The notes: generated by a model not told the origin, from the letters alone. A stretch of 63,643 nt of DNA, filler included, from Bigelowiella natans CCMP2755 (GCA_000320545.1; 7 parts of 7 records of this genome joined end to end with filler, not necessarily neighbours in it); one strand, 5' to 3'. Counted from the first letter of the whole stretch, positions 18,601 through 47,178 are shown. Numbers and translations: made by a program.

Positions 18601-20035
18601 AGGTCGTGGCGTTACCTCCCAACCAGTTCGTACTAACAAGGACGATCTCAAAGGTTCTAGAGCCTCCGGAGAAGAACGGTAGTTGCTCATTAGGAATAGT
18701 GATCATTTGACTATTTATTTCACTGGCTGAAATGAGCAACGAATCAACATGTATTGACCCACTTTCGGCCAAAAACCAAATAAAATCAAGTTCTCTGCAA
18801 GCGTCACCAGAAACTCCCACGGCTGTAACCTGGATCGAGCCGCATACAGGAATTATCGTATCGGCAGTCAAAATTACCTCTGGGATGGGAACAGGATCTG
18901 GAGCCTGTAGCTCCTGGACAATTGAATCCAGCCTAGATGGTAAGAACATGGCCGGAAACATAGATATTTCGGCCCCAATTAAAATCGTTGCGTCCGGACT
19001 CATCTACATATAAAATCTCATTTGTTAGTCATGCAAATTACATCTTCGATATTAGTCTGACCTTGACTTGAAACTGATTGGGCGAGATTGCAGAACAATT
19101 AGGAGCTGAGCCCATTTGAATCAACGTGTCAGGTTCCACCCATCGTTCACATTCGAGAATACCAGAAATGAAGGGAGATCTTTTAAAAAAGTATGTTTAT
19201 CTTCCCAAGCCAAAAAATTGTACTTGAAACAGGATTACATCGAAAAGTTTACTGTAAGCGTTTTGCCGTCTGGCTGAAGAAGAGCGTCTCCAAAAGTGAA
19301 CGTGGTGTTGCAAATGGGCCCGCCCAGGCCAAAAGAACAATTACAGCTTTGAAAATCACCCAAAGCCATACCACAATCAAAGTTTGGGATGGTGTTGCCT
19401 AGTTTTACATGAAAAGAAATTAGCTTTGTGAAAGGGTAGATGAACATGCAGATGATAACCAGGAGATTCAATGAGGTAGAGAGTCAATTCCTCGGACAGT
19501 AACCAGTCCATTCCAGGGTCGAGTATCTCAAAAGTTGTGTTCAGCACTACTGCAGGGGGAGCTGGTTGCATTGGAAATCTAAAGACATCATTCAATCATC
19601 GCTCGTTTAACATCTGTTAGTTTTGTAAGTAGAATGAATGTCAAGTCAAAGGGTAAAAGACATACGTTTCGACGAGAAGGATTTCAGTCGAGGTTTCTCC
19701 GGGGAACGGAAGGACAGGTATTATGAACATATAAAATTGGCCATCCGCCAAAATGAAGGTTGTTCGAACCTGGGATATGCATGGTTGATTCAGATAAAAA
19801 TTTATCATTTTCCCTTCAAGTGTACGATTATTTGTCCAACCTGCGCAGTAGATCCAGCTCTAGAATCAATCGAAAGAGGTCCAGTGGCAAATCGAAGTGA
19901 AAAATAAAGATACACAGGATTGCCTTCTTCTTGCAGTGTAACCCCATTGTAACCAGGTTCCCTCCCAAAGTGGCTTAGGTGCCCCGATGCGGAGCAGACG
20001 GAAGCCAGGATAAATGCTACCAGAGGCCCCATCAT
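12646..20035 (-). CDS. Polycystin-1-like (PKD/REJ + GAIN/GPS) large membrane protein, multi-exon
   Basis: Signal peptide MMGPLVAFILASVCSASG at 20035. ORF 15677..19003 has REJ/PKD-like motifs (YLWEQISGP, FNASNSIDP, NTPPILGSCVVDPLEG) and a canonical GPS CNFF...VWSENGC...LTCSCDHL|TTF followed by a TM helix. Short GT-AG introns link ORFs 15225.., 13868.., 13504.. and the final multi-TM exon, which has the polycystin-like HYHPWLTFITRSAFQFSTSER motif. Confidence 0.85.
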
Positions 20036-20332
20036 TCAGGAGGAAAACGATTCCACCGTATTACTGCCTCAGCTCTCGGGGTGGGCAAGGTTTGTGTGGT
20101 TAGGCCTTGCTTCCTCTACTCTCTATCTCTTCTGTGCGACAAGACAGAATCCGCATTCCTTGTCCAAAATCGCCTTTAACTACCACCACAGCCGAGAGAT
20201 TGACGGGATTGCGAAACAGATCATAGTTTTTTCTACGCCGACAGTGGATTTAGTGCTGCGGGGCCCTCTAGAAGCTGTCGCACCACTGAATCACCCTGTT
20301 CATGCGCCAGTCTTGCGCGAAGTGAGAGCGTA

Positions 20333-22985
20333 GAGCTCCCAAGGCACGTGCGAGCATGTGAAAATCAACAACGCGTTTGTGCTGCCTGTTTTTGGGATGG
20401 ATGCGAGACGCACCTGAGATTCTCTCAGTGTCTCGAGGAACGTCACTCTCGCTTGCTTGTTCAAATGACTCCGGCCATTGAAACATCAAAGTCACTTCGT
20501 TCGTTCGTTCAATCGAAGCGGTGTGACAGAGCTAGAAGGGCTGTTCAAGTGCGATTCCAGACGTGCAGTGGGCTGATGCAACGCGTGAAATGAGGTGGTG
20601 AGGTTTTCATCGAAACAACTCACGTGCTTTGTGTTGTCTGCAAGCTTGTTCCCATTTTCACCATCAGCGCTGTGTGCATCGTTCAACCTCCAGTTTCAGC
20701 CACGTTGGCTCAGCACAGGGCAGCGTGACAAGATGACGTGCGCCGCTAGAAGATGGCATGACATCAAACATGCATGCGAACGCACCTTGAGACCTGCCAG
20801 CCTGGAGCTTGCAAGTCGTTTTGGACGTCTAGACGTGCACGATCGCCAGGTCGATTTGTGCTGTCGATTCGAGCTAGGAGCGTCACACTCGCACATGGCA
20901 CTTTGCAGCACATCGTGCGCTCACTTCACTGGTTCAGCTGCATCAAACACGTGCCAGCGTGCTCTCTGCAAGCTCTGGCTAGCTAGCCAGCTGGCCCTGC
21001 ACAGAGCTAGCTAGCTAGCTAGCTAGCCAGCCAGCTAGCCAGGTCCAAACGTCCAGGTTGTGGGTCGATGGTTGATTGAGCTGTGTTTGAATCACGTGTC
21101 GCGACTTGTGCATGCAGCAATGCCATGAGCGCGCTGCGGAACATTCTGCGAACCTTCTTGCGACACGTTCTGTTCTGCTGCAGCTGAGCATTGCAGCGAC
21201 TGCTCCAAGTCAGCCATTGCCACGCATCACACCTCCCCCAGTCGCGAAGATGCAGCGCTCTCAAGCAGCAGTGAACTTCATGAGATGCCAGTCGATGGCT
21301 TCGTCCCTGAAGTCTCTTCCTTGGTCATCTTGCCAGAAGTTGTCGTCGTCTTTGACCTCAACAGCATGCCAACTGTCTGACAGGTCCTCGAGCTGTGAAA
21401 ACCAACGTTCACATTGCAGTTCTGGCACAGCAGCGTGGACTGAACGATGATCTCCTTTCTTCAGCTTCTTCAGCAGCTTTTCCATGTTGCTTCTGCCTGG
21501 ACATCCAGCATGCACGGTCTTGTTCTTCCAGTCGTCGTCGAATCCACAGTCAGTGTTGTCGTGGCCCATGTCGAAGTCCGGCTTTGCTCCAATGGTGTCT
21601 CGGGCAATGTCCCAGATCTTGTTGTTGATCTCAGCATGTCGCAAAACATCATCACCAATGGAACAATTCTTGAGGTGATCAATGAACCTGTCAAATGCTC
21701 TCTCACCGTCCCAGTGCACGATGAACTCTTTTGCCGATTCGTTCCGTGACTTTGGCCACCTTGTTCCAGAACGGATCTTCCTTTTCTCTGCTTCTGGTGG
21801 GCTTTCTCACTCTGACCAGAGTTCCAGTCTTTGTGATCCGTCCATCGCACTTGACTGAAGTCTTTGAATCGTCCTTCTTCTTGGACACGCCCCCAGATGG
21901 ACGAGTGAAGAATGGCAACAAGTGACGAACACTGTCTGGAGTTGTCCCGTGAACTCTGCACAATGTGGCGATGACGCGATGCAGACGTTCCACCACAGCG
22001 TCACTTTGTGGTCTGTCAACAGGACCTGGTTGCACATTGGGATGAGGCAATGCAATTGGAGCAACCTCGTCATTGACGTGCAGCTTCTTGGGAGTCCCGT
22101 TCTCTGATTCCCAGCATCTGTGTTCGTTGTGGACTTTGGCCTTGTGGACGCCTTTGTTTCTCTTGGCTGTCCCGACTTTGCAAATTCGGCGAATCCACGG
22201 TTCTCCAGTGGCCACATCGACAAAAGTCATGCACCACACACCGGAATGCTTGCACATGTCAATCTGGACGACGTCGAAACGTTCTTTGGCGCAGATCCGC
22301 CCAGAAGACTTGGATGATTTGCTTTCATGTCGGGGAGTCCCAGCAGCTTTGAGAGCAGCACACTTGCAGCCCTGGATGAATTGTCGGGAATCTGGTGGTT
22401 TCTTTGACCAGTGACACTTTGAAAGGCGTTTTGCCATGTTGGTGTCGCTGGCATGATCATCACCATGTGCTTCGCACAAGAGTCTCAATCGTTGACGCTT
22501 GGGCACACAAGTTCTCCATTCTCCACCAGTGAACACTTCAACGCGATCTTCGAGGCGTCGGATGCGCAACTTCTTCAGTTCAGCTTCGACAACCAATGCC
22601 GCCGACTCTTTTGTGTCAGGCACAAAACCTGAGTCATCCTCGAAGAGATTGTGCAGGGTGTCGGGCACAAAGTCAGCAGGTGGGCGCTGGAACAGACGCG
22701 ACCATGTGTCTGCGAGCTGTTCGTCACCAGGCACACATCTGATTCGCCTGGTGTCGTCAAACTCTTCAGTCTTTGACCTCACATTGGCGAACTGCTCGTT
22801 GGCCGTCTCACAGTTTTTGCAAATGCCCAACAGTGGTCTGTGGTCGACACAAAGGTCAAAACCATGACGACAGGATGGTGGGCATCGTCGGAAACGCAGT
22901 TGTCCCTCGGTGCTGGCGAGCAGTTCGCCTTCAGTGGGAGAATGTCTGCTCTCCGCGGGACTGCACGACCTCCCCCGCAGCAGAC
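20333..22985. other. TpA-erased hypermutated tract 1
   Basis: By manual scan the only TA dinucleotides are 12 CTAG sites, all before 21040; none occur from 21040 to 22985. CpG is abundant. Confidence 0.92.
21060..21239 (-). mobile_element. Putative polypurine tract and 3' LTR of the Ty3/gypsy-like element
   Basis: About 20 nt after the pol stop (21261) the minus strand reads GGGGGAGG (21239-21232) then TGTGATG (from 21231), the PPT-TG junction of LTR elements. The LTR 3' end (~21060) is a guess and no 5' LTR is present to compare. Confidence 0.5.
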
Positions 22986-22990
22986 TACCA
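21261..22990 (-). pseudogene. LTR retrotransposon pol 3' half: RNase H, integrase (H2C2 Zn finger + rve core + SH3-like), extra C-terminal domain; hypermutated, with frameshifts
   Basis: RNaseH: SPAESRHSPTEGELLA...FRRC...DHRPL. Zn finger: VPKRQRLRLLCEAHGDDH...KCHW...FIQGCKC. Core: FDVVQID, MTFVDVAT, PQSDAVVERLHRVI. A frameshift near 21725 continues into ORF 21261..21719. RT-RH-INT order is Ty3/gypsy-like. Confidence 0.85.
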
Positions 22991-23000
22991 CACCACACCC

Positions 23001-23320
23001 CACATTTGATTTCCCATCTGCCGTTGGTAGGGGAATGACACAAAATTTTCATTTCAAAAATTCACCTACTGACGACCTACTGCTGAACTGAATTGCTAGA
23101 ATGACATGGCAAAATTGCACGAGCATGACATGTCAAGTGTTCGACATTTGATTTCCCATCAGCAATCAGTAGCAAAATGTGCGAAAATGCGCAACATGAA
23201 AGCTTCACCTACTGACGACCTGCTGCTGAACTGAATTGCTATGATGACATGATGAAAATCACAGGCACATCCCATGTGTTTTGTGAAAACAATCTTTGTT
23301 AAAAATGACATGGCAAAAAA
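23001..23320 (+). repeat. Degenerate ~145-bp tandem duplication with a recurring ATGACATGG motif; possible subterminal region of the inserted element
   Basis: CATTTGATTTCCCATC...TTCACCTACTGACGACCT(A/G)CTGCTGAACTGAATTGCTA occurs at 23003-23098 and 23145-23241. ATGACATG recurs at ~23101, 23125, 23244 and 23305. Confidence 0.7.
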
Positions 23321-23358
23321 TCATCGCAATGTTGCCCGTCACTATAGTCTTTGCAAGG

Positions 23359-25377
23359 CTATTGAGGGGAAGTTCTCTCGAAATTGAACACGTCGCAATG
23401 GATTTTCACGTCGTCGTTTTTCGGCCAGAAGTTAGAGGTCTCTCCAATGCGGAACTTATGCATCTGTCCTGGAACAATTCTGGTCCACGCGAATTTTTCG
23501 TTGATTCTTTTTGTCGAACGAACCGCAGAAAATGATATTCGTTTCGCTCCGATCTGCGTTGCCAAGGTGGAAACATAGTGCATCTTCAAGGTGTGACTCT
23601 TGGCATCAGCAACGTTAATGAGATGAAGCACTTTCTCCCCCTTGAATCGATAGATGCGAACTGCATCGAATGCTGCATTGTTCCATTCCAGAGGCACTGC
23701 CCAAACCTGTTCGCCATCTTTCACATCCTCAAATATTTTTTTCAGATCTTCAGTAGTTTCGTATTCGTGGACGGCATGGGCTTTCCAATCAACTGGAGCA
23801 TTTTTTGAGTTGCAGACGATGACCTTTTTGTCTTCTGTTTTCATTGCTGCTTTTAGTTGAGCTAAGAAGTCCATCTCCACTACCCAGCCCATGAAAGAAG
23901 GGTTTTGAAGGTTTTCGGCAATGTTGTATCCCATTTTCACCGCCAAAAAACTGTGCTTGATCACCAGTAGCTTTAACACGTATTTACTCACGAATACTGG
24001 ATGTTTATTTGTCACCAATCCCGGAGTCTTCAAAGTGCACACCAGATGGTTTATGGCGTCAGCGCTCTCGTGTCCCGCGGTACCCTTCAAAAGAGATTCT
24101 GCGTTTCCCACTTTGTCAATCATCCGATTTATTTGTCCCTTCACTGTTTTTAGATCTGTTGCAAACATCCATCGTGCAGAATGACCTGCAAAGTAGAACT
24201 TCTCGCGGAGCTTCTCGGAAAATTCATTCTCCTTGTCTAGACAATCGATATACGTACAGACTTCTTTTTGGAATGCCTCGTCCTTTGATGCAGCAAGGTA
24301 TTGCTCCAATGTCCACGGATGCATTGTATGGCGTATCACTTCATCGAAGGCTTCTTTGCCAGCCAAAGACTTTGTAACGATGTTAACCCGTACATTGTCG
24401 TAGTGGCATGATTGCTCAAGGGCTTGGTGGTGCTGTCCATCTATCCTCAGACCATCGAGCACCACGATGTCTGCTTTACTACCATTCAAGGTTCCAGTTG
24501 CTACTAATCTCGATTTGTTCAGCTCTCCATCATTGATAAAGGAGAACATCCGGGCAGCTTTCTTGGTCTCTCCGTTGAGGAAAACCACTGTCGGAGGTCT
24601 AGCACGCAAAAAATGGACCCATAAGACGTTCTTCCCCGCAGTCCACCTCGAGACTGCCCAGCCCCAAGTCGTCACCGATTTCCCAAGTCCAGGTGTTCCA
24701 ACTATTTCAAGTTCACGCTCCTCCTCCAGCTTAGTCCAAAGCTCAATGACTTCCTCCCGCCCATACAATCGGAGTTCGCCATTTCCGGTAGCATTGCGCA
24801 GACCAGCAATACCCAATCCGCTCACGACGAAGAATTTCCCTCTCTGTGGTGTATCTGATATGTATATCTGCGCTGAAATGTCTTCCCAGTGGGCCTCTTC
24901 CCCCCTGCCGCTTTCCTCCATTTCCATGGCTGAACACACACGCAAAAATATCTCAGCACACCGATTCTTCCTCAGATGTTACAAAAATACATTACCGGTT
25001 GCATCCTCGAATTTCTTTGACACGTCCTTCAGTTCTGCCTCCTTCGCCTGGATTTCCTTTTGAGTTTCAGCTATTTGCGCTTCTACTTTCTTTGTTTTCT
25101 CATTGAGCTCCTCCTTCGTAAACTTTTCTTCCGAGTAAAATTGTTCAAATCGCGCAAGTCGGTCATTCAGCTTGTTCTCCTTCTCCCTCAATTTCAAGAT
25201 TTCCTGCTTTGTAAGTTGGATCTGATTTCCCCATACCTCAGAACGCTGAGAACACATCAAAGCTTAAGCTCCCGAACGCAAGCCTCGTAGGATAAGTACC
25301 TGTGCTTTCGAACTTCTCCTGCTAGGGATTCTTTCATCTACCTTCCTTTTCTCGTCAAAAGATCCACTACGCTTCAT
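23359..25377 (-). CDS. Crinkler/RHS (CR)-type protein: coiled-coil N-terminus, P-loop NTPase, PD-(D/E)xK-like REase
   Basis: Walker A GTPGLGKS, Walker B IVVLDG, FYFAGHSARWMF, GWVVEMDF, and nuclease motif WAVPLEWNNAAFDAV...INVADAKSHTLK. Two short GT-AG introns (~25299-25246 and ~24995-24930) join an ATG at 25377 and coiled-coil ORF 24979..25260 in frame. TpA content normal. Confidence 0.75.
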
Positions 25378-25623
25378 CGAGTCTGATTTCGAGTCTGGTG
25401 TGAAGATCTTCACGGGAGACTCTCGTTGCGGCGAATCCCCGGAAAGAGCATTACCGGGAGTATTACCGGTATTGCCCGTTAGTGTCCGTTAGTGTCCGAA
25501 GATTAGGGACTCCCATTTTCATCCCGGAATGCCCAGCAGCGGGGAGAGTCTCCGGTGAAGAACTGACACGTGTGGCTGATATGGCAAAGACATTAAATGT
25601 CAAATTTTCGGGCACACGATGCC

Positions 25624-26990
25624 TCAAAGCTCCAGCCCAGTGATGGTGTTTTCGTACCCAGGTTTCACCCATTGATCCTCAAAGCCATCTTCAAACTCAA
25701 CATCCTGAGGGGTGTACTCACCAAATGCTGGGCAAGTCTGTTGATTATTTCTACTAAGATTGCATTCCACACAAGTCAATCTACAATTGTTCCACAGATG
25801 AGGTTGAGCATTATCAATTCTATCCACAGAAACATTATCAGCAGTAAATCCACATCTACACACAGGACATTGTGGATGATTATTAACAGTTCTTTTCATC
25901 CATTCCTCATCAATATATTCTTTATCTTTCCAAGTTCTACCAGCTCTTTTGTCCTGAGATTTATATGAAGATACTTTCATTCGTAGTTTTTGAGAAATCA
26001 TACTTTCTTTTAATCTGTAGCATTCTTTATCGCTGTGCTGATATATTTGTATCTGTGATAGGTCAGTTGAACGATTCATAGCAGTCCAGAGCCACTTGCG
26101 ATTAATTCTACAGGTGTCAGTATCGAATACGGTAATAGGGCCATCTACTGATAATCCTTGAAAACTATGATAGGTAGAGGCATATGATAATCTAAAATGC
26201 TTACTAATTAATTCTATAGGAATTCTTATTTCTTCCATATCACATACATCCTGTATTACAAATTCTTTTTTACTTACTTTAACAATTTCATAAGCATAGT
26301 TCACATATAGTTTTGGTTTCTTATTATATTTTTTACACACAATCTCCATACCAGCATAGTAGCAAATACCATCTACATAAACCTTTTTTCTCGGTTTCTT
26401 TTGTAGACCGTGGATATACTTACCTACTGAACGGGATCTAAAGTTGTAGAAGGTAATGTTATTAAGTGTTTTTACTTTATCCATACTTTCAACAACTTTA
26501 AAATATTTTTTTAGCACATCAAATGGTTTAGTTTTTACATCAAATATTTCTTGTTTTAATCGTGCAAGAGTATTTCTTTCCTCGTCTGTTTTTACTCTCT
26601 TACAGATTTTAAGAGTGATTTGATTAGGGAACATATCATTCATAGCTTCAGTTGTTCTAACATCAAGGTCTTTGATGTTGTTAAACAGATATTCGTTTTC
26701 AATGGGATCCAATTGAGCTAAATCACCAGTAGCAATAAATTTTTTATCAACATGCTTATCCATAAATAACTTAATTTTTGATAGTTGATGTAGTGAATAC
26801 ATATAAACCTCATCAAAGCATATAACATCATGTGGTGAAATATCAAATTTTCTTATGTATTTACATTCGTTGTTATGAATGTTAAGGCTAAATAATCTAT
26901 GATAAGTAATAGCATCGTGTCCGCTCTCACGAATATTTTGGCATAATTTATTAAACGGTGCTACGAACAAGATTTTTTTACCTTTATATT
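25624..26990 (-). CDS. SF1 (RecD/Pif1-like) helicase plus C-terminal HNH/His-Me endonuclease; C-terminal part of a PolB fusion
   Basis: Helicase motifs FVAPFN (Ia), TYHRLF, CFDEVYM (II), ATGDLAQL (III), TYHSFQGLS (V), WTAMNRS (VI). Nuclease CPVC...SVDRIDNAQPHLWNNCRLTCVECN. Walker A (PGSGKS) sits at the end of the upstream ORF, one nucleotide out of frame. Confidence 0.85.
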
Positions 26991-29474
26991 TTTAACTGAA
27001 TAACTCTTACCACTACCAGGTAGCAAAGCATTCACAAGAGTTCTATCATACTTATCAAATACGTTTGTAATTTCTTCTGTATTCCATTCATTCACAATAT
27101 CAATCTTATTAATGTTAATTGTTTTAGGTTCTACCACTTCATTTTCTAAAGGAATAAAGTATTGACCCATAACCTTAGTTTTTTCCTCCAATTTCACACC
27201 ACCAATGTCTTTATTAAAATCAAAGTAAGGTTTAATCTTGTCAACTTTATCTCTTACAATAATACAATCAGTTTTAATAGCTATAGGATGTAATCCTACA
27301 GATAAACATTTATTATATAAATTAAACATCTTAATAGAAACAAGGTCATATATCATATCTTTAATAGGTTTGAATGTTTCTCTTACCAGTTTTTTAGTGG
27401 TTCTTACAAGTAAGAATAGATCATCACTGATAGGGTTAATTTCGCCGCCACATAATTTCTTATAATGGTTTGCTTCATTCAAATTTTTGTAAATTTTACA
27501 TACTGATTTATGATTGTATTTCTTCTCAAGCTGTCCTGTAATTTTATTACATATGAATTTATTAGCATTGATGGTTCCAAGTTCTGTTTTACACAGTTTA
27601 TCAACTGCTTTGCTAAATTTAACAGCAGCAACATTAGAAGGTCTAATGTAGTATAGTATATCGTAACTATTTTCATTCATTTGTTTTAATTTAAATCCAT
27701 ATACTCTGTTGTATCTTTTAGGTAATAAGATATTATGAGCTTCACCTCCATCTAAACTCATTACAACATACATTGCAAGGTCTTCTATGGAATGATTATC
27801 ATATTTGACATAATTATCAAAATAATGAAAAATAGGAATTCGAGAGATTGATTTTAAAGCCCAAGTACAACATTTATTAACATCAATACCATTTCCAATA
27901 GCATCATCACTTAGTCTTCCTACAGCAGGTCCTTTAGGATATGCTTCATTCATTCTTAATGCTTCATCGTTAAAAATGCTTATGTGTTCTTTTTTAATAA
28001 TTTTTTGATAGAAGTCATCATCTGCTTTCACAAAATTTTCATAGTTATTTTCATTTACATCATAAGTAATAATGTCATTCATATTGTTATAGTCAGGATG
28101 AGATATGACACATAGTTTATTGCTAATTCTAAATGACAAAGAAAGTATTCTGTTATGTTGAAAAAATATTCTTGGTTCGTATTTGTGAACATTAATCATT
28201 TCAATTAATAATTCCCTCACATCGCCACAGTAAAAATATTTAATCCATTCATCATCCACTGTTTTAATGTGAGATACGATGTCATTAAGGTTTTCAATGA
28301 ATTTGAAACAATTACTTTTTTCTTCATCTATTGTTCTAAATTTGTATTTGTCATGTACTTGTAATGTATATTTGTTATATTCTACTTCTTTTTTTTTCTG
28401 TTCTAATTCTTTGATTTGGTGATTGAGCAAATAAGCATGATCATTGTGAACCATAACTCTAAAGTTTCGTGGTGAGATGTGCTTGTTGCATTTCTCAGGT
28501 GCAAACTTATCAACTAAATTATGCATGTTGTCGTAAACGGTTAGCCCCAATTTATATTTCTCAAAAAACTTTTTAATCTCTGCCAATGCAATGGCATTGT
28601 CCTTTTTTTTTTCTTTTTTTCCTACAATGTTACAAAGAGCATCATGAGCAAGATTTTTGCATCTGGATTTTTCAAATGATTTTTCATGTGAGTTCACAAT
28701 GGCATTGAACATGCAAGAATTCTCTCTGTTGCATTTTTTAGGTTGATGGAATGGTTCACCAAAAGTTTTAGCATCTTGGTCAATTTCACATTCAAGGTGT
28801 TTGCAATTCATGGCCACATTGTCATCATCATCTTTCACCACAATTTGACTGACATCATGATCACTTGATGATTCAGAATCATGAGATCCATTGCAAATGA
28901 TTTTGATGTGATCACCATGTTCAAATGAAGGGTCATTCATTTCCTCAGCCATGTTTTGGTTTCTCATTGACACTCCACAAACTTGTCCATCAAATGATTT
29001 TGATTTGATTTTGACAAATCTGCCAATGGCATTTCTGAATGCTTGAGTGGTTTTTTTCAAAACCACACCGTTGATGGTCATCACATTTGCCAATCTCAGT
29101 CCTTTGTGATTGAATTCATTGACAGCATGTTTTCTTTCTTCATCCACCTTGCGATGAACAAAAATTGCAAAACTTGCATTGCTGCCACCACAGATTGTTC
29201 CATGTGTTTTTTTCAGTTGGCTTTCGTTGAGGTTTCTGAAAGAATTGAGACTGCCATTCACAACTTCAAAAGGTGAACCTTCAACACTCAATTCATTGCA
29301 AGTTCCACCACCAATCTCAACTGATCGGTTGGTGTCAATGTTGCATCCACAACCATTTTTCATCTCTTTGTTTTCAATTTCAGCAAAAAGCTTTTGCAAG
29401 TTCTTTTTTTGAAGAGAACTGAACTTTCCAAAATTTTCCAAAAAACTTTTCATCATGTCATTGGACATTGTCAT
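26961..29474 (-). CDS. polB: Family B DNA polymerase (divergent, protein-primed/Polinton-PLV-like) fused to a helicase; 5' third hypermutated
   Basis: Motif A GIDVNKCC, motif B NKFICNKITGQLEK, motif C IAIKTDCII. N-terminal NSCMFNAI...VHNDHAY resembles the Cys/His pair of vOTU-like domains in pPolBs. AT-rich and intronless, unlike host genes. Confidence 0.72.
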   Translation of the reverse strand: MTMSNDMMKSFLENFGKFSSLQKKNLQKLFAEIENKEMKNGCGCNIDTNRSVEIGGGTCNELSVEGSPFEVVNGSLNSFRNLNESQLKKTHGTICGGSNASFAIFVHRKVDEERKHAVNEFNHKGLRLANVMTINGVVLKKTTQAFRNAIGRFVKIKSKSFDGQVCGVSMRNQNMAEEMNDPSFEHGDHIKIICNGSHDSESSSDHDVSQIVVKDDDDNVAMNCKHLECEIDQDAKTFGEPFHQPKKCNRENSCMFNAIVNSHEKSFEKSRCKNLAHDALCNIVGKKEKKKDNAIALAEIKKFFEKYKLGLTVYDNMHNLVDKFAPEKCNKHISPRNFRVMVHNDHAYLLNHQIKELEQKKKEVEYNKYTLQVHDKYKFRTIDEEKSNCFKFIENLNDIVSHIKTVDDEWIKYFYCGDVRELLIEMINVHKYEPRIFFQHNRILSLSFRISNKLCVISHPDYNNMNDIITYDVNENNYENFVKADDDFYQKIIKKEHISIFNDEALRMNEAYPKGPAVGRLSDDAIGNGIDVNKCCTWALKSISRIPIFHYFDNYVKYDNHSIEDLAMYVVMSLDGGEAHNILLPKRYNRVYGFKLKQMNENSYDILYYIRPSNVAAVKFSKAVDKLCKTELGTINANKFICNKITGQLEKKYNHKSVCKIYKNLNEANHYKKLCGGEINPISDDLFLLVRTTKKLVRETFKPIKDMIYDLVSIKMFNLYNKCLSVGLHPIAIKTDCIIVRDKVDKIKPYFDFNKDIGGVKLEEKTKVMGQYFIPLENEVVEPKTININKIDIVNEWNTEEITNVFDKYDRTLVNALLPGSGKSYSVKNIKVKKSCS

Positions 29475-29564
29475 TGCAGGTCAGATTTCTTCAAGTGAGA
29501 ATTGAACGAATGAAAATTTGAAAAAAAACCACAGTTTTTTTGAGAGTTTTGAAACGAACATGAA

Positions 29565-29780
29565 ATGGTTCAAAAAGAAAAAATCCACAGTGTTGCAATG
29601 AGCGAAAACAACAAAGTGTTCAAATCCAAAACTTCAGAACGTGTGAAAGAGTGCCACAAAAAGAACTCTCAAAAATGGCCACGGAAGGCAGAATGTGAAG
29701 CCTGCAATTGTGTGATTGGATCAGCATCACTGTCTCGACACAAAAGAACTGATGGTGTGTCCCCATTCTGTCCTTTGTGA
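29565..29780 (+). CDS. Small C2H2-like zinc-finger ORF of viral type (hypermutated)
   Basis: CEACNCVIGSASLSRHKRT, preceded by RVKECHKKN (likely ancestral KEYYKKN). Confidence 0.5.
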   Translation: MVQKEKIHSVAMSENNKVFKSKTSERVKECHKKNSQKWPRKAECEACNCVIGSASLSRHKRTDGVSPFCPL

Positions 29781-29865
29781 TTGTCAATGTTTTTCACAAA
29801 TGCTTCTGCAGGTTTGTCACTGACTTCAGGTTTTGTTGGAACTTTTTCATCCTTGTCATTGTTGC

Positions 29866-30135
29866 TCATTGCAATGCAACTGCACACTTTGCAACAATTT
29901 TGAACGAACGTTGATCAAACGACACCATTGCACTGTCAACTTTTTTGGGAACCTTTGGAATTTCTTTTTTCTTCTTTTCCTCCTCTTTCATTTTTGGTTT
30001 GCGAACATCCTTGAAGTGTTTCTTGTTGTGTTCACTCATCTTCTCTTTTTTTTCTTGACGTCTCTTCTTTTGGTGTGCTGTCATTTTTTCTCCATTTGAT
30101 TTGCAATGCACTTTTTGTTTTTCCTTGTCAGACAC
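29866..30135 (-). pseudogene. Small K/E-rich ORF of viral type (hypermutated)
   Basis: KQKVHCKSNGEKM-TAHQKKRRQEKKEKM-SEHNKKHFK reads as a KEYY.KNKEKI-type repeat with Tyr changed to His/Cys and Ile to Met. Confidence 0.45.
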
Positions 30136-30224
30136 TTGTTGAAATGGTTCAGATTTTCACACTTGAAAAAAATGATCTCAACTCAATTGACACATGAGTG
30201 ATTTGAGAGAAACAGAAAAAAGGT

Positions 30225-30761
30225 TCACACGACAGTGGAACAATCACTTGACCCGAAGAGCTGTGATCTCAAAAATGCACACTCTGACACAAATGCGTGT
30301 GCTGCGACTGTTGCGGTTCCTGTGCAGTCATCATCAATGCAGACCCAAACGAAGATCCACAATGGCAGAGCTCCGCCGTCGTGGGAGCAGGCGCGAAAGC
30401 TGGCTTCGCTGAAACAGTCTCCGGACATCGATGACCCACACGGGAACACTCGAAAGTGCCACTTGCCGTCTCTGGTTGAGAATCCTGTGAGAGGACGAGA
30501 CTGCTTGTGGATTGGGATCTGTGTGTGCGCCTCGTTTTCATCCAGAGTCGTGAAGATCTTCGTCATGGTCAGCTCGTCTGGCACCTCGTCGATCTTTCTC
30601 ACAGGGAAGTTTCGTCTCTTCAATGTCTTGTTCACACGACGCAGATTGTGTGCTGGCCTGAAACACGGGAGTGTTTCTTTCTTTGCGAGGATGAGCGGGC
30701 TGTTGTGTCCAGACGTTGAGGGCTTGACTTTGCCGTCGTTTGTCCATTTCTGAACCTGTGG
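30225..30761 (-). pseudogene. Reverse transcriptase fragment of a Ty3/gypsy-like LTR element (hypermutated)
   Basis: One frame: QVQKW.NDGKVKPSTSGHNSPLILAKK...FRP..NLRRVNK...FPVRKIDE...IFTTLD..EAHTQIPI...TGFSTRDGKWHFRVFPCG...WVCIDD. These are RT motifs, with YxDD appearing as CIDD. Confidence 0.88.
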
Positions 30762-31067
30762 TCAGTTTGCGACCACCAAATGCATGTAAGCGCGCATGTA
30801 CATGCATAGCATAAATGGTAGTGCATGCTGTGCTTTATTATATCTTACATTTGCATGTGAGCATGTTTATATAGGTTCAGGCTATCGTTCCTGTGCCTTA
30901 GTTAGTCATATAGGGGCATGTAACGTGAGTTACATGCCCGGAAATACAGTTATAGGAGGGGGCACGTGCAACTGGGAACATCCTTCTCGGTTGTTTCCCC
31001 AACCGTGGATGTTCCTAGGAGCACCCTCGGTATTTTACTTACGACATGGAGTCGGCCTACGTATTGT

Positions 31068-31108
31068 AATATTATAGGGGAAAATGGCCTACATTTTCCC
31101 TAATATTT
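31068..31108. repeat. Imperfect inverted repeat (hairpin)
   Basis: AATATTATAGGGGAAAATG-gccta-CATTTTCCCTAATATT. Confidence 0.55.
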
Positions 31109-31871
31109 TGGGCAACTGCTGCTGCGTAGCATGTTGCTGCTGGGGACGCTGTGTGCCCAGCACATGATGTGTATTGGCGCGCAACGCGCTAGTTTAGCAC
31201 ACTCTAAAAGACCCGCAAGCAAGCGGTAAGCTTTCTCCTTTGGTAGTTTGCTCATGCATGCTCATGTCATGTTATCTATTCAACAGGGTTTTAGTTTTGT
31301 GGATTTAAAGCATTGTAAAAGCATACATTGCACAGTTGTGTTGTTAGCGCTGCGCAATACAACTACACTGGTAGCGGACGAACTACGTTGAACTATGGAT
31401 CAAGGGAACTTATTTGGGTCTCAGGAGGAGACAAGTGACCATGTTGGGGAAGCTGAGGGCAAAGGGACCGAGATAGGAAATTCGGAAGTTTCGACGGGAG
31501 GCTATGGGCTTCGGGATGGCATCCCGGTGGCTCAGCCCGTGGCTTCTGAGCGAAAGTATAAAGCTTGGAAACGGGCGCCCGGTCCTACCCTGACTATGGA
31601 AGGAAGTTCTGGAGCCAGTTTGGGGGAACTTAAGGTGTTTACCAATGCCCGAAAGATTTGCAAAATTTGTTTTNNNNNNNNNNNNNNNNNNNNNNNNNNN
31701 NNNNNNNNNNNNNNNNNTTAATTAATTAANNNNNNNNNNNNNNNNNNNNNNNNNNNNNNNNNNNNNNNNNNNNTTCGTATCCTCTCTATTCAATGCTGGC
31801 TTGAAGATGACGGTGGTCCTATCATAAAATCAAAAATAAGTACAAATAAATAAATCCTGATCAGTAGAAGA

Positions 31872-36579: not shown

Positions 36580-37079
36580 AATCTGTTGATGTTTGCGCGT
36601 TTCGATCATTGATTTATCAAATTGCTTCATCCATTTGCACTCGCCAATTCCACAACACTAGAACATTGCACCTGTTATACTCGATGCAACCACTTTGAAA
36701 CATTGATGATCCAGATGGTTGATGCAGTGTGCAGTTGTAGTGCAATTATTGTGGTCACCATGGACACAACGTAGGTAGTTACTGCAGCAACGAAGAATCT
36801 GCTGTGTGCAATGCGTGTCGCTGAACCCACACTCATTTCCGCACGTCATGGGCCAACGCAACGCGTGCATTTTTCAGTGCGCACATGTGACACCATTTCC
36901 AAAAGCCAAACGTGTGGCAAATTGACACTTGTCAACCAGCTCAAGTGCATATAGACAGCGCTGGCTAGCTGGCGGAGAGCCGCGACACAGCACGCTCGCG
37001 CCATTTCATCATCACGATCGAGTTGTGATCAAGTGAATTGTCGCACATGTGACGCACACATCCAAAGTATAGCTGTAGA

Positions 37080-38100
37080 TGAAAGCAAAATGGAAGAAAG
37101 CGGATCGCACATGGCGAACGTGTCCGTGGTTCCACCAACCAGGTGGAGTTGACGTTTCACCTTCTCTCCGACGATGGCTCCAAAACAATGAACACATCTA
37201 GACATCTAGACATGTGCATGTGGTGTGGTGCACGAAACATGCGTTGTACACACTGTGTCCGTGCAACATTCTAGCCGATGCGTCATCGATGAGCAAGTCG
37301 ACACGACAAAAGTGACTTGCAGCAGATGAGAGCTGCGCTCACACAATGAGGACGTTCGACAAGCATTGCAGAGTTCCCCCCTCAGCACAGGTCTTCACGC
37401 GCCAAAAGGTTGCACGATCGATTGAGCACGTCAGTCATGTTCAACACTTCAACAAGCTAGCAACATGCATCGCATCGCATCGCACATGGGTGACACAACG
37501 AAAGAAGTACATTGATGTTGTCACGCCTCAAACAACACTGGAACAAACGAATCGAGCAATCATGAACGAGTGAACGATGATGCGAACCAATCCCAACAGT
37601 GCAGCCAAAAGGATCATCAGAAGTGCCAGCCAGTCGTGCCCCGTTGGCTGCTGGCACTGCCAAGTGCTCTGGCTAGCTCCAGAGCTGGCTGGTGCTGCAT
37701 GAACGAGTGAAAGAACTTGAGTGACAATGACGAAGTTGGCTTTCCCACTGGTGCATGAGTGTGCTATCACAGACCAGTGACAGGATGTGTGCAAATGTGC
37801 AATTGTGTATGCACACAATGTCACGTTGTCCATCATTGGTCAGCGAGCCAGCCATCGAGCTGACACCACCACCTGTGTGTGTGCAATGCTCACTCTGAGA
37901 GCCAGAGAGCAGCAAACGTGGCACGCGAAAAATGGAAAGAAAAAAGAAGTGTTTCCGTTGGATCGAGCAGTTCAAAAGAATCGTGGGACGTGCTGACTCG
38001 TCCCTGATCCTCACCGCCTTCTAAGAACAAAGGAGACGGCGAGGAGGGAAAACAAAGACCAAGATCCTAGATGTGAAAATGCTCCATTCGACGTCACCGG
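37080..38100. other. Partially TpA-depleted intergenic tract
   Basis: Most surviving TA are CTAG; only a handful of others remain (e.g. ~37247, 37508, 37745, 37808). TG/CA-rich. Confidence 0.75.
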
Positions 38101-38468
38101 TACCCGGAGGAATGGATGGGACTTTGCTAGAGACTAGTGAAGAGATGCTCAAGTGTGCGTTCCGGGCCAAATTAGAAAAGACGTCATGAGAATGAAAGAT
38201 CAGTGTGTATTGCAGCATTGTGCACGTGCTAGAAAATCTAGATGTGGACATGCATGCACACACAGCTAGCAAGCTTAGGCTATGAACAAAGTGCTAGCAA
38301 AGATTAGCTCTCAAGTTGCCCACTTGAACAATAAGAAAAGAACAGTCAATGCGTAGTTACGGAACTAACTAGTTCAGAGGGAGTGGGTACTTCATTGTGA
38401 TTAATTCATCTAGTTATAGTGGAGTCAGGGAGATGAAGGTACATAGCCAGCTTGCCGTACATGACTAG

Positions 38469-43825: not shown

Positions 43826-44310
43826 TGGTAACATGTGGGCTAAGCTGACAGGCGATGTGCACGTATTGCTCCTGCTAAATCTCCTAATACACCATCATAA
43901 TGATGATAGAATCTTTGCAACACACATTTAATCAACAAGGTGATCGCTTTCTCCATGCAGATGATAATATCGATCATGTTTTATGGTTGTGAGCGTTTGC
44001 TAGAACATATTGCAAGCCTAGATGCGTGTCTTGAACCACTCATGCACATGTCTAGATGTACGTGTACGTGCATATGGACTTGCGTCTACAACAATGTAAC
44101 AACACAATGTGCAGTCGCATACAACACCGCAAAGCCCGGCATTGGCACGCCTGCAATGGCAGATTGTGCATGCGCATGTCAATGCCATGTATGTGCACAG
44201 CTAGACAGGTCACAAAACACACACACCTGATCCTAGTTTACATCTGCGATGCACACGATGTCTCAGCTCTGAGCTTTGTGGTGTCCCATGCTAGCATGAC
44301 TTGCCTATAG

Positions 44311-45641
44311 TTGCCGTCATCGCCGCATTGATTCATCACAATGATCGCGGTGATCGACTCCGCTGGCGGCATGGCTGCTTGATCGAGTCCCACCCAGCTG
44401 CGATGCGCTGAGAATGATCATTCAATGGAGAACATGAGCACACGTTGTTCATGCAGCGCATTCACAGAGCATGGAGACACGCACCTGGTTGCATGGTGGT
44501 GCAATGTGTGCTTCAGTCATCATCAATGCGCACTCAGATGGACACCCCTGGACCAACAATGGCACGCATGCAGCTTTCTAGCTTTCTAGCTTTGTTCATC
44601 GTGCACTTGATGCACATCATTTCACTTGCTCCAAGAATGAGATTTCAACAAAAGGTTGTTTTGCAGGCACGTGTGCGCGGGCGCGGGCGCAGATCGTGAT
44701 GAATTCACGTGCACTTCCATTTCCAGACCACACCAGCTAGCTAGCACGTGAACGGCACGTGCGTGTTGGTGATGGCGTCGGAAGTCCAGGAGTGTCCGTG
44801 AAGATGCAAAGTGAGATCAAGCAAGTTGGATGCGTTGGACGAACCATTGACGCTGCACGTTCGCTGCATCGCGGCGCCACGCGAACGCACACGTTTCGGA
44901 TCGAATTCATCTGAACGTGAAACTGGTGATGCTGCTAGGCTGGCCGTGTGCGTCTTTCTTGGACGCAAAGACATTCCTCGGTTTTTGCCACAAAACCTTC
45001 GTGGTCATCGCTGTCAAGTTCTCCGATCCCGATGAGTTTCTTCTCACAGAGAGAAGAAAAGAATGTGCTTCGATTGATCGTCGCGCAGGGCGAAGAAGAA
45101 GAAGAAGCAGTGGAAGGAGGAGAAAAGAAAGTTTGTTTCGTGCGAGGCTGATGAAATCCTGAGACTGAAAGAAAGAAAGAAAGAATGAAACACGATGATC
45201 GACTGTGTTTCAAAAGTGTCACATGACACTTGCCGAAACGCAGTGAACAATGAACAATGATGATGAACTGCATTTCCAAAGTGTTGCAAGACACTTGCAG
45301 TGTGCGAAACGCAGTGCCTCGAACTGGCTTCAGTGAGGGCTTTGACTGGTGAACTAGCAGGATTTTTCAAATTGGTGCAATCTAGCTGCTGTGAGACAAT
45401 GCAGCTAGCAGCAACGTGGCGACGGCGCAAGGCATCCACTCTGAGCAGGAACTTCCTGAACGCTGTGTCCACACGATGATCTGTGTTCAGATCATCCGAA
45501 GGAGCACCCAGCAAAACTTCAGTTTTGATGGATGGAGTCAGGAGCAGTGCTTTTGAACAATGAACAATGAACAATGATGATGAACCACATTTCCAAAATG
45601 TGACAAGACATTTGCAGTGTGCGAAATGCAGTGCCTCGAAC
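44311..45641. other. TpA-erased hypermutated tract 3, containing a ~110-bp direct repeat and decayed coding-like fragments
   Basis: The only TA dinucleotides are 8 CTAG sites. Repeat copies at ~45244-45355 and ~45554-45670. Confidence 0.9.
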
Positions 45642-45843
45642 TAACTTTGGTGAGGTCTAACTAGTGAAACCAGAAGGGATCAAGAATGGCATTTTGAGCT
45701 GGATGCGATGAGAGAAGCAGTTGCCGCCAGCGTCTGGAGCCAAAACGATGTCGCAGTGAATAAATCCCATGATGTCGTATCACTACTTTGTCGCAGTGAC
45801 GAAATTGAGTGGATTTCTCTACGATCTGCAACAAAGCCCAAGA

Positions 45844-47178
45844 ATGGTGGCTACGAGCCTTATGGCATCCCGCAAGCCCACCTGCACCGTAGCCTCCTTG
45901 GCGGCCGCTTCCATGCTAGGAGCGTGCCTGTTGATCCAAATCACATCATCTCCCTCTGTGTTAACGTAATTGTCTAAATCTTAACCATATGGGTGAAATG
46001 GGGGGGGCACAGGGTTTAGCTAGACGACGGGCCTCCTAGCACCACTCATGTCGGAGCCCCCTGTTCTCAACTGTAATCACCAAATTATGATTAGACTGTT
46101 GCTTTAGGTCAACGATAGGAGGATCAGGAGTAGCTAGCAGCCGCGTTTCGGGTCGGTGGATCAGAGGGGGTCGAGGAAACCATGGACGACGTGGGAGTCT
46201 ACGTCGCCACCACGTGGCACATGCAGCCCCCCCATCCGTCCCCGTTGAAGGATCGTCGAACATCGAGGATGGAGAGGAATCAATGGCTCAGAAGTTTAGG
46301 AAAATGATGGTACCTTGATTATAATATGTCCTCCATCCTCCCCCCTTGCACCACACCGTGGCTTAGCAAGTTGTTTCAAATAAAATCGATTAGACAAACA
46401 AACCTACAGTGGTTATCGGAGCTGGAGTTAGCGGCTTAGCTTGTGCGAAGATTCTCAAGGTTCTGAATCAAAATCGAAAAATATTAACAAGATGATGATC
46501 TCATGATCATATCATCATTACCACCACCATCTCGATTCCACATCAACAATACCTCTTCCTTAACCAGGAGAAGAATTTCAATGTGACCGTCTTGGAGGCA
46601 TCTGACGGATATGGTGGCCGTGTGCGCACAGACAACATAGGTATTATTGCAAAGTGTGAAGCATATACTTCTTTCCTATTTTCCTATTTCTTACTCTCTC
46701 TCTCTCTCTTGCTAATCACATCAAATGTGGTTTCAATGAGTGTTGCGGTGTGGAGATGGGTGTGTAGAAGAGTAGGAGGAGGTGGACACAAAAATGACCA
46801 GCAGGTCGAAAATATTGGTCTAAGTACAGTCATTGACATCTTCCTATCCCCCTCTCTTGTATCAGATGGATTCAAACTTGACCGCGGCTTTCAGGTGTTC
46901 CTCGATGCCTACCCGGACGTCCAAGACTACTTCCGTAAGAACAAACTCCCATAATTAACATTGTCCGAGCTATTTAATGTAGTAGCAACGGTAGTAATAT
47001 CGACACTGCTACTTAAACCAGAGTTGTCATACTATGAATTACGGTAGAACAATATCCCCCTAAGATATGATACTGTTGTTGTTATACAGGTGAAGCAGGT
47101 ATTGAGAAGCTCAAACTGAAGCAATTTCAACCTGGTACAGCAGTGTCTTTCTCCCTCGCCATGTGAGAGCAGAGAATA

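What the first reader, a model, noticed from the sequence alone, without database searches (positions are those of the whole stretch)
20333..30786. Candidate RIP-like genome defence of opposite chemistry: saturating TpA to TpG/CpA hypermutation of mobile DNA
SEEN: by manual scan 21040-22985 and 28771-30786 contain no TA at all; roughly 1 per 16 bp or more is expected by chance. Neighbouring genes are TA-normal and CpG is retained. Conserved TA-containing codons are recoded both ways on one coding strand: RT YIDD>CIDD, YNSP>HNSP, AYxQ>AHTQ, VKK>AKK; RNaseH RYS>RHS, FRxY>FRRC; integrase YYW>CHW; the first ~300 aa of PolB have no Tyr while the rest is Tyr-rich. KNOWN: fungal RIP and 5mC decay are C>T and create TpA; ADAR editing of a transcript hits one strand only. 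INFERENCE: a double-stranded, in situ, repeat-targeted A:T>G:C mutator. Candidate mechanisms are a TadA/ADAT-like DNA adenine deaminase, deamination of 6mA, Pol eta-like WA mutagenesis, or miscoding of a modified T such as 5hmU. I know of no described pathway matching this, but could not search the literature.
Basis: partly seen in the sequence, partly recalled or inferred. Interest (0 to 1): 0.95.

Follow-up and report, generated by a model that had tools for sequence, protein, structure and literature searches.

The report
TpA-erasing hypermutation in Bigelowiella mobile DNA
Two 2-kb stretches of a dead retrotransposon and a virus-like polymerase gene in this algal DNA contain no T-A step at all because each was rewritten to T-G or C-A, likely by the host's own anti-parasite mutator (probably an adenine deaminase) that a 2026 preprint already reported in what is very likely the same alga; the addition here is that the word CTAG is the last to be erased.

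Summary
21040-22985 and 28771-30786 hold 0 TpA (about 106 and 171 expected), with CpA and TpG raised. Illumina contigs match parts base for base. The loss is derived: Tyr codons kept in intact relatives became His or Cys about equally, and TA>TG/CA explains 95 of 111 differences from a paralogue. The host is almost certainly Bigelowiella natans. A 2026 bioRxiv preprint measured exactly this TpA>TpG/CpA hypermutation in that species, so the process is already known and its enzyme is still unproven. The locus is a Ty3/Gypsy pol gene split by a nest carrying a Polinton-like-virus polymerase-helicase gene. Details absent from the preprint's main text: (1) saturation on an LTR retrotransposon; (2) one patch crosses two unrelated elements and fades over about 400 bp inside a gene; (3) surviving TpA lie mostly in CTAG (25 of 87 versus 160 of 3313); (4) an adjacent high-depth repeat and an intact multi-copy Gypsy family are unmutated, so repetition alone is not the trigger. 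Best mechanism: local DNA adenine deamination (inferred).

The parts
21040..22985 (.). TpA-free patch 1 (covers the RNase H-integrase part of the Ty3/Gypsy pol gene)
   Evidence: 0 TpA; CpA/TpG o/e 1.66/1.45
28771..30786 (.). TpA-free patch 2; runs without a break across the RT fragment, an intergenic stretch and the 5' part of the virus-like polymerase gene
   Evidence: 0 TpA; genes placed by tblastn; 0-difference contigs at 29541-29742 and 30554-30701
20334..21036 (.). Non-coding flank downstream of pol (possibly 3' UTR/LTR, not shown). All its TpA are in CTAG, many in a (GCTA)n array that also holds GCCA/GCTG units
   Evidence: 11 of 11 TpA listed are CTAG (the TpA at 21036 is also CTAG); contig X1 matches 19500-21126 with 0 differences
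30252..30758 (-). Ty3/Gypsy reverse transcriptase fragment, catalytic motif reads CIDD
   Evidence: 49% identical to residues 104-272 of intact pol P0167; Pfam RVT_1 E 0.002, below cut-off
21273..22974 (-). Ty3/Gypsy RNase H + integrase, frameshifted near 21725, no Tyr left
   Evidence: 41% and 38% identical to P0167 residues 421-1008; across RT and RH-IN, 47 aligned Tyr of P0167 meet 12 His, 12 Cys, 0 Tyr, 23 other residues
26964..29468 (-). Polinton-like-virus (Tlr1-like) protein-primed polymerase domain and start of the SF1 helicase; frameshift near 26988
   Evidence: 62% and 53% identical to intact P0003, P0004; fold matches phi29 polymerase; motifs DxNK, KxxxNxxxG, KTDC, GxGKS
25627..26988 (-). 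Rest of the SF1 helicase and C-terminal HNH-like Cys/His motif; TpA-normal
   Evidence: Pfam AAA_30, UvrD_C_2; 69% identical to P0004 834-1262; family profile hits RecD/Dda helicases
28390..28770 (.). Fade-out zone of patch 2 inside the polymerase ORF
   Evidence: Tyr shared by P0003 and P0004: 0 of 10 kept above 28771, 3 of 10 here, 34 of 42 below 28390
23362..24924 (-). Crinkler/RHS-like P-loop NTPase gene inside the nest; TpA o/e 0.48, intact ORF
   Evidence: ESM Atlas features 0.98-0.99 to Crinkler/RHS clusters; Pfam AAA_25 weak
23002..23277 (.). About 143-bp tandem duplication forming a high-depth repeat end; sharp right edge of patch 1
   Evidence: self-BLAST 23002-23133 vs 23144-23277, 75%; summed contig depth above 4000 vs 80 in the flank
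30758..31584 (.). High-depth, TpA-normal repeat that truncates the RT and forms the sharp right edge of patch 2
   Evidence: one 383-bp contig, 0 differences, depth 1613 vs 80; TpA o/e 1.19; loose ends at 30756-30758
37002..38201 (.). Further TpA-depleted patch, no recognisable protein; 8 of 18 TpA are CTAG
44152..45851 (.). Further TpA-depleted patch, no recognisable protein; in its core (44310-45642) 8 of 8 TpA are CTAG

Best explanation
The two patches are mobile DNA in which every TpA has been converted to TpG or CpA, about equally on both strands, likely after integration and likely by the host's locally targeted mutator already reported for Bigelowiella natans, which most likely deaminates the adenine of 5'-TA to inosine (a predicted TadA/ADAT-type enzyme, untested). 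Shown here: the loss of TpA, its derived direction, strand symmetry, independent resolution in different copies, a patch that crosses two unrelated elements and fades inside one gene, and slower loss of CTAG. Shown in the preprint: the change arises de novo in living lines, at about 1000 times the background rate. Inferred: (1) a silenced or otherwise marked chromosomal domain of a few kb recruits the enzyme; (2) inosine is read as G at replication, which gives TG or CA depending on the strand hit; (3) T>C and A>G changes can never create a new TpA, so the process runs to saturation, strips Tyr codons and kills catalytic motifs; (4) younger insertions that land later are unmutated and give the sharp edges. 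I put the process at about 0.95 and the deaminase chemistry at about 0.55-0.6.
For: 0 TpA vs 106 and 171 expected, CpA/TpG raised, ApA/TpT not lowered. Intact relatives keep Tyr: 150 of 150 profile hits have 3.6-7.9% Tyr, against 0.1% in P0002 and 0% in P0007; 15 of 15 metagenomic loci have TpA o/e 0.69-0.95. TA>TG/CA explains 95 of 111 residue differences between the window's TpA-rich part and paralogue P0002; the next-best dinucleotide rules explain 33 (AA), 30 (AT) and 0 (CG). Outcomes at 207 window TpA sites: 101 TG, 98 CA, 8 other; at Tyr codons alone 20:16, 1 other. In listed contig differences, 19 of 61 events are CA<->TG swaps and 9 are sites where a paralogue keeps TA. A DNA-replicating virus-like gene is hit as hard as the retroelement. 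Preprint: 210 of 211 and 20 of 20 de novo changes in two viral regions were A>G/T>C, all at TpA, and an ADAT2 homologue was proposed. TadA natively recognises U-A-C-G with U 5' of the target (PMC10586758).
Against: No enzyme was tested here or in the preprint, and no genome was held to search for candidates. The amphioxus DNA-editing ADAT2 cited as precedent prefers GAA and also deaminates C at TCG (PMC10354150), which does not match an A-only, TpA-only spectrum. Domain spreading rests on one junction and one gradient, which recombination between a mutated and an unmutated copy could also give. The host name comes from database labels of near-identical proteins, not from the window.
Confidence: 0.58

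Rival explanations
1. Same process, but the lesion is on thymine: a TET/JBP-type enzyme oxidises T in TpA of silenced mobile DNA (5hmU or further), and the modified base pairs with G, giving T>C.
For: In dinoflagellates TET/JBP-made 5hmU marks transposons, and earlier work cited there found preferential replacement of T in TA and TC (PMC11572971 passages). The spectrum is formally identical to A>G on the other strand.
Against: No 5hmU or TET/JBP evidence for B. natans was found or could be tested. TpC is not depleted here (o/e 1.27 and 1.20). The passages read report silencing, not mutation.
Confidence: 0.18
2. An error-prone polymerase (Pol eta-like, WA motif; recalled) re-synthesises silenced mobile DNA and misinserts G opposite T.
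For: Gives A>G/T>C on both strands and would explain patches with a fading edge.
Against: At a dose that removes all TpA, ApA/TpT remain at o/e 1.07-1.39. The AA rule explains only 33 of 111 differences against 95 for TA. Transversions are rare (12 of 164 and 10 of 158 places). The preprint found all such changes at TpA.
Confidence: 0.1
3. Adenines in TpA are first methylated (6mA) and then deaminated or mis-read.
For: Mirror of 5mC decay. The palindromic TpA target and the slow CTAG context fit a methyltransferase with flanking preference.
Against: Eukaryotic 6mA is mostly at ApT (recalled), and ApT is only mildly lowered (0.84, 0.79). 6mA motifs reported for giant viruses of this host are TGCA and CAN6TG, not TpA.
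Confidence: 0.08
4. On targeting only: a true RIP-like system that recognises repeated DNA by homology, with young repeats simply not yet hit.
For: Both damaged elements have several mutated paralogues, and all four patches lie outside recognisable host genes.
Against: The preprint's main target is a single-copy 186-kb viral region. A high-depth identical repeat beside patch 2 is TpA-normal. A multi-copy Gypsy family keeps 5.5-6.3% Tyr. The polymerase-helicase gene has paralogues along its length, yet only its 5' third is saturated.
Confidence: 0.2
5. RNA-level editing (ADAR-like) of retrotransposon transcripts before integration, native TpA avoidance, or an assembly artefact.
For: Only parts of the patches were matched base for base in other runs, and those runs hold about 0.70 of the words.
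Against: Both strands are hit equally; a DNA-virus-like gene is affected; intact relatives are TpA- and Tyr-normal; independent contigs are TpA-free; the preprint Sanger-confirmed 19 de novo SNMs.
Confidence: 0.02

Closest known systems
TpA-restricted hypermutation of integrated viral DNA in Bigelowiella natans (Mettrop et al., bioRxiv 10.64898/2026.01.13.699255)
   Same: Very likely the same species; same TpA>TpG/CpA spectrum on both strands; foreign or mobile DNA as target. The preprint also reports TpA-depleted CDS enriched for reverse transcriptase and DDE domains, and 124 depleted clusters.
   Different: The preprint shows ongoing mutation in a giant-virus and a virophage region that are far from saturated. 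This locus shows the end state on a Ty3/Gypsy element and a PLV-type gene. Its main text has no mention of CTAG, flanking context, LTR, Polinton or saturation; its supplements could not be read.
Repeat-induced point mutation (RIP) of filamentous fungi (recalled; described)
   Same: Dinucleotide-specific, both-strand, potentially saturating mutation of mobile DNA in the chromosome; can leak into neighbouring DNA (recalled).
   Different: RIP is C>T, creates TpA, depends on repeat homology and a methyltransferase-like protein, and acts in the sexual cycle. Here the change is A:T>G:C, removes TpA, occurs in clonal lines and hits a single-copy target.
TadA/ADAT2-ADAT3 deaminases, including amphioxus BjADAT2 (PMC10586758, PMC10354150)
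   Same: A-to-I chemistry read as G; TadA recognises U immediately 5' of the target A.
   Different: BjADAT2 prefers GAA and also edits C; no link to B. natans hypermutation has been tested.
Tlr1-like pDNAP-SF1 helicase-HNH fusion of Polinton-like viruses (Krupovic et al., PMC5499653)
   Same: phi29-like polymerase domain fused to an SF1 helicase and an HNH-like C-terminus; the paper names B. natans PLVs with this architecture.
   Different: Here it is an isolated, frameshifted, partly hypermutated gene; no capsid gene was recognised nearby.

Membership tests
B. natans TpA hypermutation (Mettrop et al. 2026) | Host is B. natans | tested here: met
   P0007, labelled B. natans (aug1.11_g5078), matches the window's integrase letter for letter over the aligned core; nearest polymerase paralogues are B. 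natans models
B. natans TpA hypermutation (Mettrop et al. 2026) | Changes are A>G/T>C confined to TpA, on both strands | tested here: met
   95 of 111 differences; 101 TG: 98 CA of 207
B. natans TpA hypermutation (Mettrop et al. 2026) | Target is viral or mobile DNA, host genes spared | tested here: met
   Both TpA-free patches lie on Ty3/Gypsy and PLV-type genes; the host REJ/GPS gene has o/e 0.71. Two other patches could not be identified
B. natans TpA hypermutation (Mettrop et al. 2026) | Ongoing de novo mutation at this locus | not testable with these tools
   Contigs of paralogues cannot be separated from new mutations of this copy
Fungal RIP | C:G>T:A transitions that create TpA | tested here: not met
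   TpA is removed; the CG rule explains 0 of 111
Fungal RIP | Triggered by repeated sequence | tested here: inconclusive
   Damaged elements are multi-copy, but an adjacent high-depth repeat and an intact multi-copy family are unmutated; these may be younger
Fungal RIP | RID/DIM-2 methyltransferase, premeiotic timing | not testable with these tools
   No genome held
TadA/ADAT-type DNA adenine deamination | 5' T/U preference | tested here: met
   Strict TpA target; TadA recognises U33-A34
TadA/ADAT-type DNA adenine deamination | Inosine intermediate and dependence on an HxE-PCxxC enzyme | not testable with these tools
   Needs biochemistry or genetics; the candidate Bn78255 is named in the preprint only
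Pol eta-type WA mutagenesis (recalled) | ApA mutated as well as TpA | tested here: not met
   ApA/TpT o/e 1.07-1.39 inside the TpA-free patches
ADAR-type editing of retroelement RNA (recalled) | One strand only; retroelements only | tested here: not met
   Strand-symmetric; DNA-virus-like gene affected
Ty3/Gypsy LTR retrotransposon | pol order RT - RNase H - integrase | tested here: met
   Both window pieces align in that order to P0167, which has Pfam RVT_1, RT_RNaseH and a weak Integrase_H2C2
Ty3/Gypsy LTR retrotransposon | Paired LTRs, gag | tested here: not met
   No LTR pair in self-BLAST of 19001-47000 and no tblastn hit for gag-like P0160: a truncated relic
Tlr1-like pDNAP-SF1 helicase fusion of PLVs | Protein-primed family B polymerase domain with altered motif C | tested here: met
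   Foldseek best hits phi29 polymerase, E 1e-8; motif C position reads KTDC
Tlr1-like pDNAP-SF1 helicase fusion of PLVs | C-terminal SF1 helicase and HNH domain in the same protein | tested here: met
   Fused in P0003/P0004, split by one frameshift in the window; helicase hits; conserved CxxC..H..N..CxxC; HNH hit to PacI only E 0.56
Polinton-like virus (whole element) | Capsid genes, packaging ATPase, terminal inverted repeats | tested here: inconclusive
   No long inverted repeat bounding the gene; no capsid-specific search was run

The most novel reading that the evidence does not exclude
B. natans carries a chromatin-domain-targeted DNA adenine deaminase that spreads over a few kb regardless of element boundaries or copy number, saturates LTR retrotransposons as well as viral genes, and has a flanking fingerprint (CTAG about 7.5-fold over-represented among survivors, C- or G-flanked half-sites intermediate) that can identify the enzyme in vitro. 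If unchecked scan notes of the same TpA erasure in diatom genomes hold, it is a widespread A-to-G counterpart of RIP across SAR algae rather than a quirk of one species.
Probability: 0.3. Interest if true: 0.85.

Novelty: already known. Interest (0 to 1): 0.5.

Why it matters
A natural, targeted A-to-G mutator of chromosomal DNA would be a new arm of eukaryotic genome defence and a natural counterpart of engineered adenine base editors. The process is in print only as one 2026 preprint among the papers my searches reached, and its enzyme and targeting rule are open. This locus confirms the process independently from old, saturated damage, extends it to a Ty3/Gypsy element and a PLV-type gene, and supplies two testable constraints: CTAG is mutated last, and repetition alone does not predict damage. 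It also warns annotators that such relics read as long open frames, because TAA and TAG stops cannot survive, and get called as genes (P0007, P0002).

Tried and rejected
No whole genome was held, so genome-wide TpA scans, copy-to-copy DNA alignments and deaminase searches could not be run. The viral-contig scan found no relative (487 pattern hits, 0 confirmed). The metagenome scan gave only distant relatives (22-32% identity), used as composition controls. A search for longer relatives of the RT fragment found none; the intact pol came from cluster members instead. Pfam found nothing above cut-off in 17 open frames from the unexplained patches and flanks. One-sided explanation of CTAG sparing: at half-sites the edited A was in CTA-H 21 times and in D-TAG 32 times (p 0.17), so it is inconclusive. 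The 'YTAR spared, RTAY lost first' rule from earlier scan notes: without CTAG the classes do not differ from background (15/35/12 vs 66/192/94, p 0.38). Absolute protection of CTAG is rejected: the coding cores hold 0 CTAG where about 7 are expected at background density, and a paralogue keeps CTAG at 30402 where the window has CTGG. Regeneration of CTAG by Dcm-like CCWGG methylation is rejected: only 5 of 38 surviving CTAG have the flanking C/G (CCTAG or CTAGG). CpG decay as the source of CA<->TG swaps is rejected, because intact relatives have Tyr, not Arg, at these codons. Expression: raw RNA reads (X21, about 6% of the run) give near-zero depth over both patches, but short reads and paralogues make this weak. 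Blanc et al. 2015 was not held and is known only through citations.


Full report
1. Observation. CpA is at o/e 1.66 and 1.75, TpG at 1.45 and 1.59, CpG at 0.80 and 0.58, ApA at 1.13 and 1.39. About 106 and 171 TpA are expected, or 69 and 111 at a host-like o/e of 0.65. The next-longest TpA-free gap in the window is 419 bp. The full span 20333-30786 is two patches around a TpA-normal middle (411 TpA in all). A 500-bp scan at o/e 0.30 or less finds four depleted regions in the window: 20152-23851, 28452-30801, 37002-38201 and 44152-45851.

2. Not an artefact. Contigs of public runs match TpA-free DNA with no difference at 29541-29742 (two runs), 30554-30701 and 21064-21388, and match 19500-21126 as well. 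The limits are real: only the longest pieces and 40 difference rows per call were shown (of 579 and 187), the best DNA runs hold about 0.70 of the sampled words, and over much of 21221-22812 only a paralogous version appears among the listed rows. Those paralogues are TpA-poor too. Of 61 listed difference events, 19 are CA<->TG swaps, 9 are sites where a paralogue keeps TA, 1 is the reverse, 5 are CpG-type and 27 are other. Transitions make up 384 of 464 places in run X1, and 152 of 164 and 148 of 158.

3. Host. The window's integrase matches gene model P0007 letter for letter over the aligned core, and the nearest polymerase paralogues are P0002 and P0005. P0007 and P0002 are labelled Bigelowiella natans, and P0005 is a Bigna1 gene model. 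The host is therefore inferred to be this chlorarachniophyte alga.

4. Anatomy (minus strand). An RT fragment (30252-30758) and an RNase H-integrase piece (21273-22974) align in order to one intact pol protein, P0167, at 49% and 41% identity; residues 273-420 are missing. P0167 carries Pfam RVT_1, RT_RNaseH and a weak Integrase_H2C2, which is the Ty3/Gypsy order. No LTR pair or gag was found. Between the pieces lies a nest of about 7.2 kb. It holds a 143-bp duplication at 23002-23277, a Crinkler/RHS-like NTPase gene, and a polymerase-helicase gene (25627-29468, one frameshift near 26988). The predicted fold of the polymerase part matches phi29 DNA polymerase (pLDDT 79, E 1e-8), the family profile hits RecD/Dda helicases, and an HNH-like motif is conserved. 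This is the pDNAP-SF1 helicase-HNH fusion that Krupovic et al. describe for Polinton-like viruses, including those of B. natans (PMC5499653, passages). A high-depth, TpA-normal repeat starts at 30758 and cuts the RT.

5. Direction and spectrum. Where P0167 has Tyr (47 aligned positions) the window has 12 His, 12 Cys, no Tyr and 23 other residues. In the polymerase gene, Tyr shared by two intact relatives are kept in 0 of 10 positions inside patch 2, 3 of 10 in 28390-28770, and 34 of 42 further downstream. All 150 best profile hits have 3.6-7.9% Tyr, and 15 of 15 related metagenomic loci have normal TpA. Paralogue P0002 is mutated along its whole length (0.1% Tyr). TA>TG/CA alone explains 95 of its 111 differences from the window's TpA-rich part, against 33 for AA, 30 for AT and 0 for CG. 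At 207 window TpA sites the outcome in P0002 is TG 101, CA 98, other 8, assuming saturation; at Tyr codons, where C and H are read directly, it is 20:16 with 1 other. Both strands are hit equally.

6. In situ action. Patch 2 runs unbroken across the RT, the intergenic DNA and the 5' third of the unrelated polymerase gene, then fades over about 400 bp inside that ORF. The sharp edges coincide with high-depth repeats. I infer a domain-level process acting after insertion, with later insertions unmutated. Recombination between mutated and unmutated copies is an alternative for the gradient. Against a simple repeat trigger: the repeat at 30758 has TpA o/e 1.19, and a sister Gypsy family (25-member cluster; 10 of the 15 listed members are B. 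natans models) keeps 5.5-6.3% Tyr in the two representatives measured. Both may simply be younger.

7. Context. In 20333-21036, 11 of 11 listed TpA are CTAG, and in 44310-45642, 8 of 8. With regions chosen on total TpA only and tandem CTAG collapsed, 25 of 87 survivors are CTAG against 160 of 3313 elsewhere (p 1e-12). Relative to host DNA, CTAG is enriched 7.5-fold, half-sites about 1-fold, GTAC 1.5 and TTAA 1.05 (4 sites each), and the other four contexts 0.3-0.5. Independently, 8 of 9 TA kept by paralogues are CTAN or NTAG (p 0.006). CTAG is slow, not immune: the coding cores have none (about 7 expected), and a paralogue keeps one that the window has lost. Which flank matters is unresolved (21 vs 32, p 0.17). 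A caveat is that GCTAGC-rich motifs may have been abundant in these flanks from the start.

8. What is known. Mettrop et al. (bioRxiv 10.64898/2026.01.13.699255) report a mutation-accumulation experiment in B. natans. They found 231 of 302 nuclear SNMs in two viral regions, nearly all A>G/T>C and all of those at TpA, in a subset of lines. The larger region is single-copy. They also report TpA-depleted CDS enriched in RT and DDE domains and 124 depleted clusters, and they propose an ADAT2 homologue. The finding is thus an old, saturated example of a described process. The main text does not contain CTAG, context, retrotransposon, LTR, Polinton, saturation or flanking. Supplementary tables S2, S6, S8 and S10 may bear on this and may list this locus. 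Searches showed no other paper on the process among the rows listed.

9. Mechanism. Adenine deamination is the simplest chemistry for a pure, TpA-only transition, and TadA reads U 5' of its target (PMC10586758, passages). Against it, amphioxus ADAT2 prefers GAA and also edits C (PMC10354150, passages). Thymine oxidation remains open, since dinoflagellate 5hmU marks transposons and favours TA and TC (PMC11572971, passages), but TpC is not depleted here. Pol eta-like synthesis fits poorly because ApA is untouched. 6mA at TpA has no support in what I read: viral motifs in this host are TGCA and CAN6TG (10.1101/2025.11.19.688996, passages), and B. natans is noted only for DNMT6 (PMC9998398, passages). 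Fungal RIP, ADAR and Pol eta properties are recalled, except where a call is cited.

10. Earlier scan notes (unchecked AI notes) describe similar TpA erasure in diatom-like genomes and a YTAR-spared rule there. I tested only that rule, on this window: apart from CTAG it is not significant.

11. Verdict. Observation confirmed; interpretation partly supported; process already known from one preprint on this species. The locus adds saturation, spread across elements and the CTAG fingerprint. Interest 0.5.

Noticed in passing
window 36560-38400 and 43830-45851: Two more TpA-depleted, CpA/TpG-enriched patches with no recognisable protein, rich in GCTAGC/GCTGGC/GCCAGC motifs like the flank at 20334-21045; the second has a 177-bp internal duplication (45241-45417 vs 45558-45733, 75%). 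Possibly decayed repeat ends.
   Followed up: partly
window 20980-21045: A (GCTA)n array mixed with GCCA and GCTG units, which looks like a microsatellite caught part-way through TA>CA/TG conversion.
   Followed up: partly
window 23362-24924 (-): Intact Crinkler/RHS-like NTPase gene inside the nest. RNA reads lie here and 42 reads carry a poly-T loose end at 23279, which suggests a polyadenylated minus-strand transcript from this gene or a paralogue.
   Followed up: partly
window 25400-25570: Imperfect inverted repeat around short tandem units between the helicase and NTPase genes (seen by eye); a 281-bp contig covers 25296-25576 with 0 differences at depth 594 vs 80. Possibly an element end.
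   Followed up: no
window 25964-26700: A contig of the RNA-guessed run X15 skips 26174-26408 and 26450-26687 (the latter with GT..AG ends) inside the helicase gene: possible splicing of a paralogous transcript.
   Followed up: no
window 26988: The frameshift between the polymerase and helicase frames lies in a homopolymer run, and some contigs show another length there; it may be copy-specific or an assembly slip.
   Followed up: no
proteins P0160, P0162, P0164, P0167: Gypsy proteins labelled Alexandrium andersonii and Karenia brevis sit in one 90% cluster with B. natans models, and the three read look identical to them by inspection; probably cross-contamination of transcriptome sets.
   Followed up: no
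window 15677-19003 (-): Single-frame 1108-aa REJ/PKD/GPS-domain (polycystin-like) host gene, TpA o/e 0.71, 1.3 kb from the mutated flank.
   Followed up: no
window 31674-31773, 41519-41618 and other gaps: Assembly gaps are written as N runs around TTAATTAATTAA, a scaffolding linker rather than biology.
   Followed up: no
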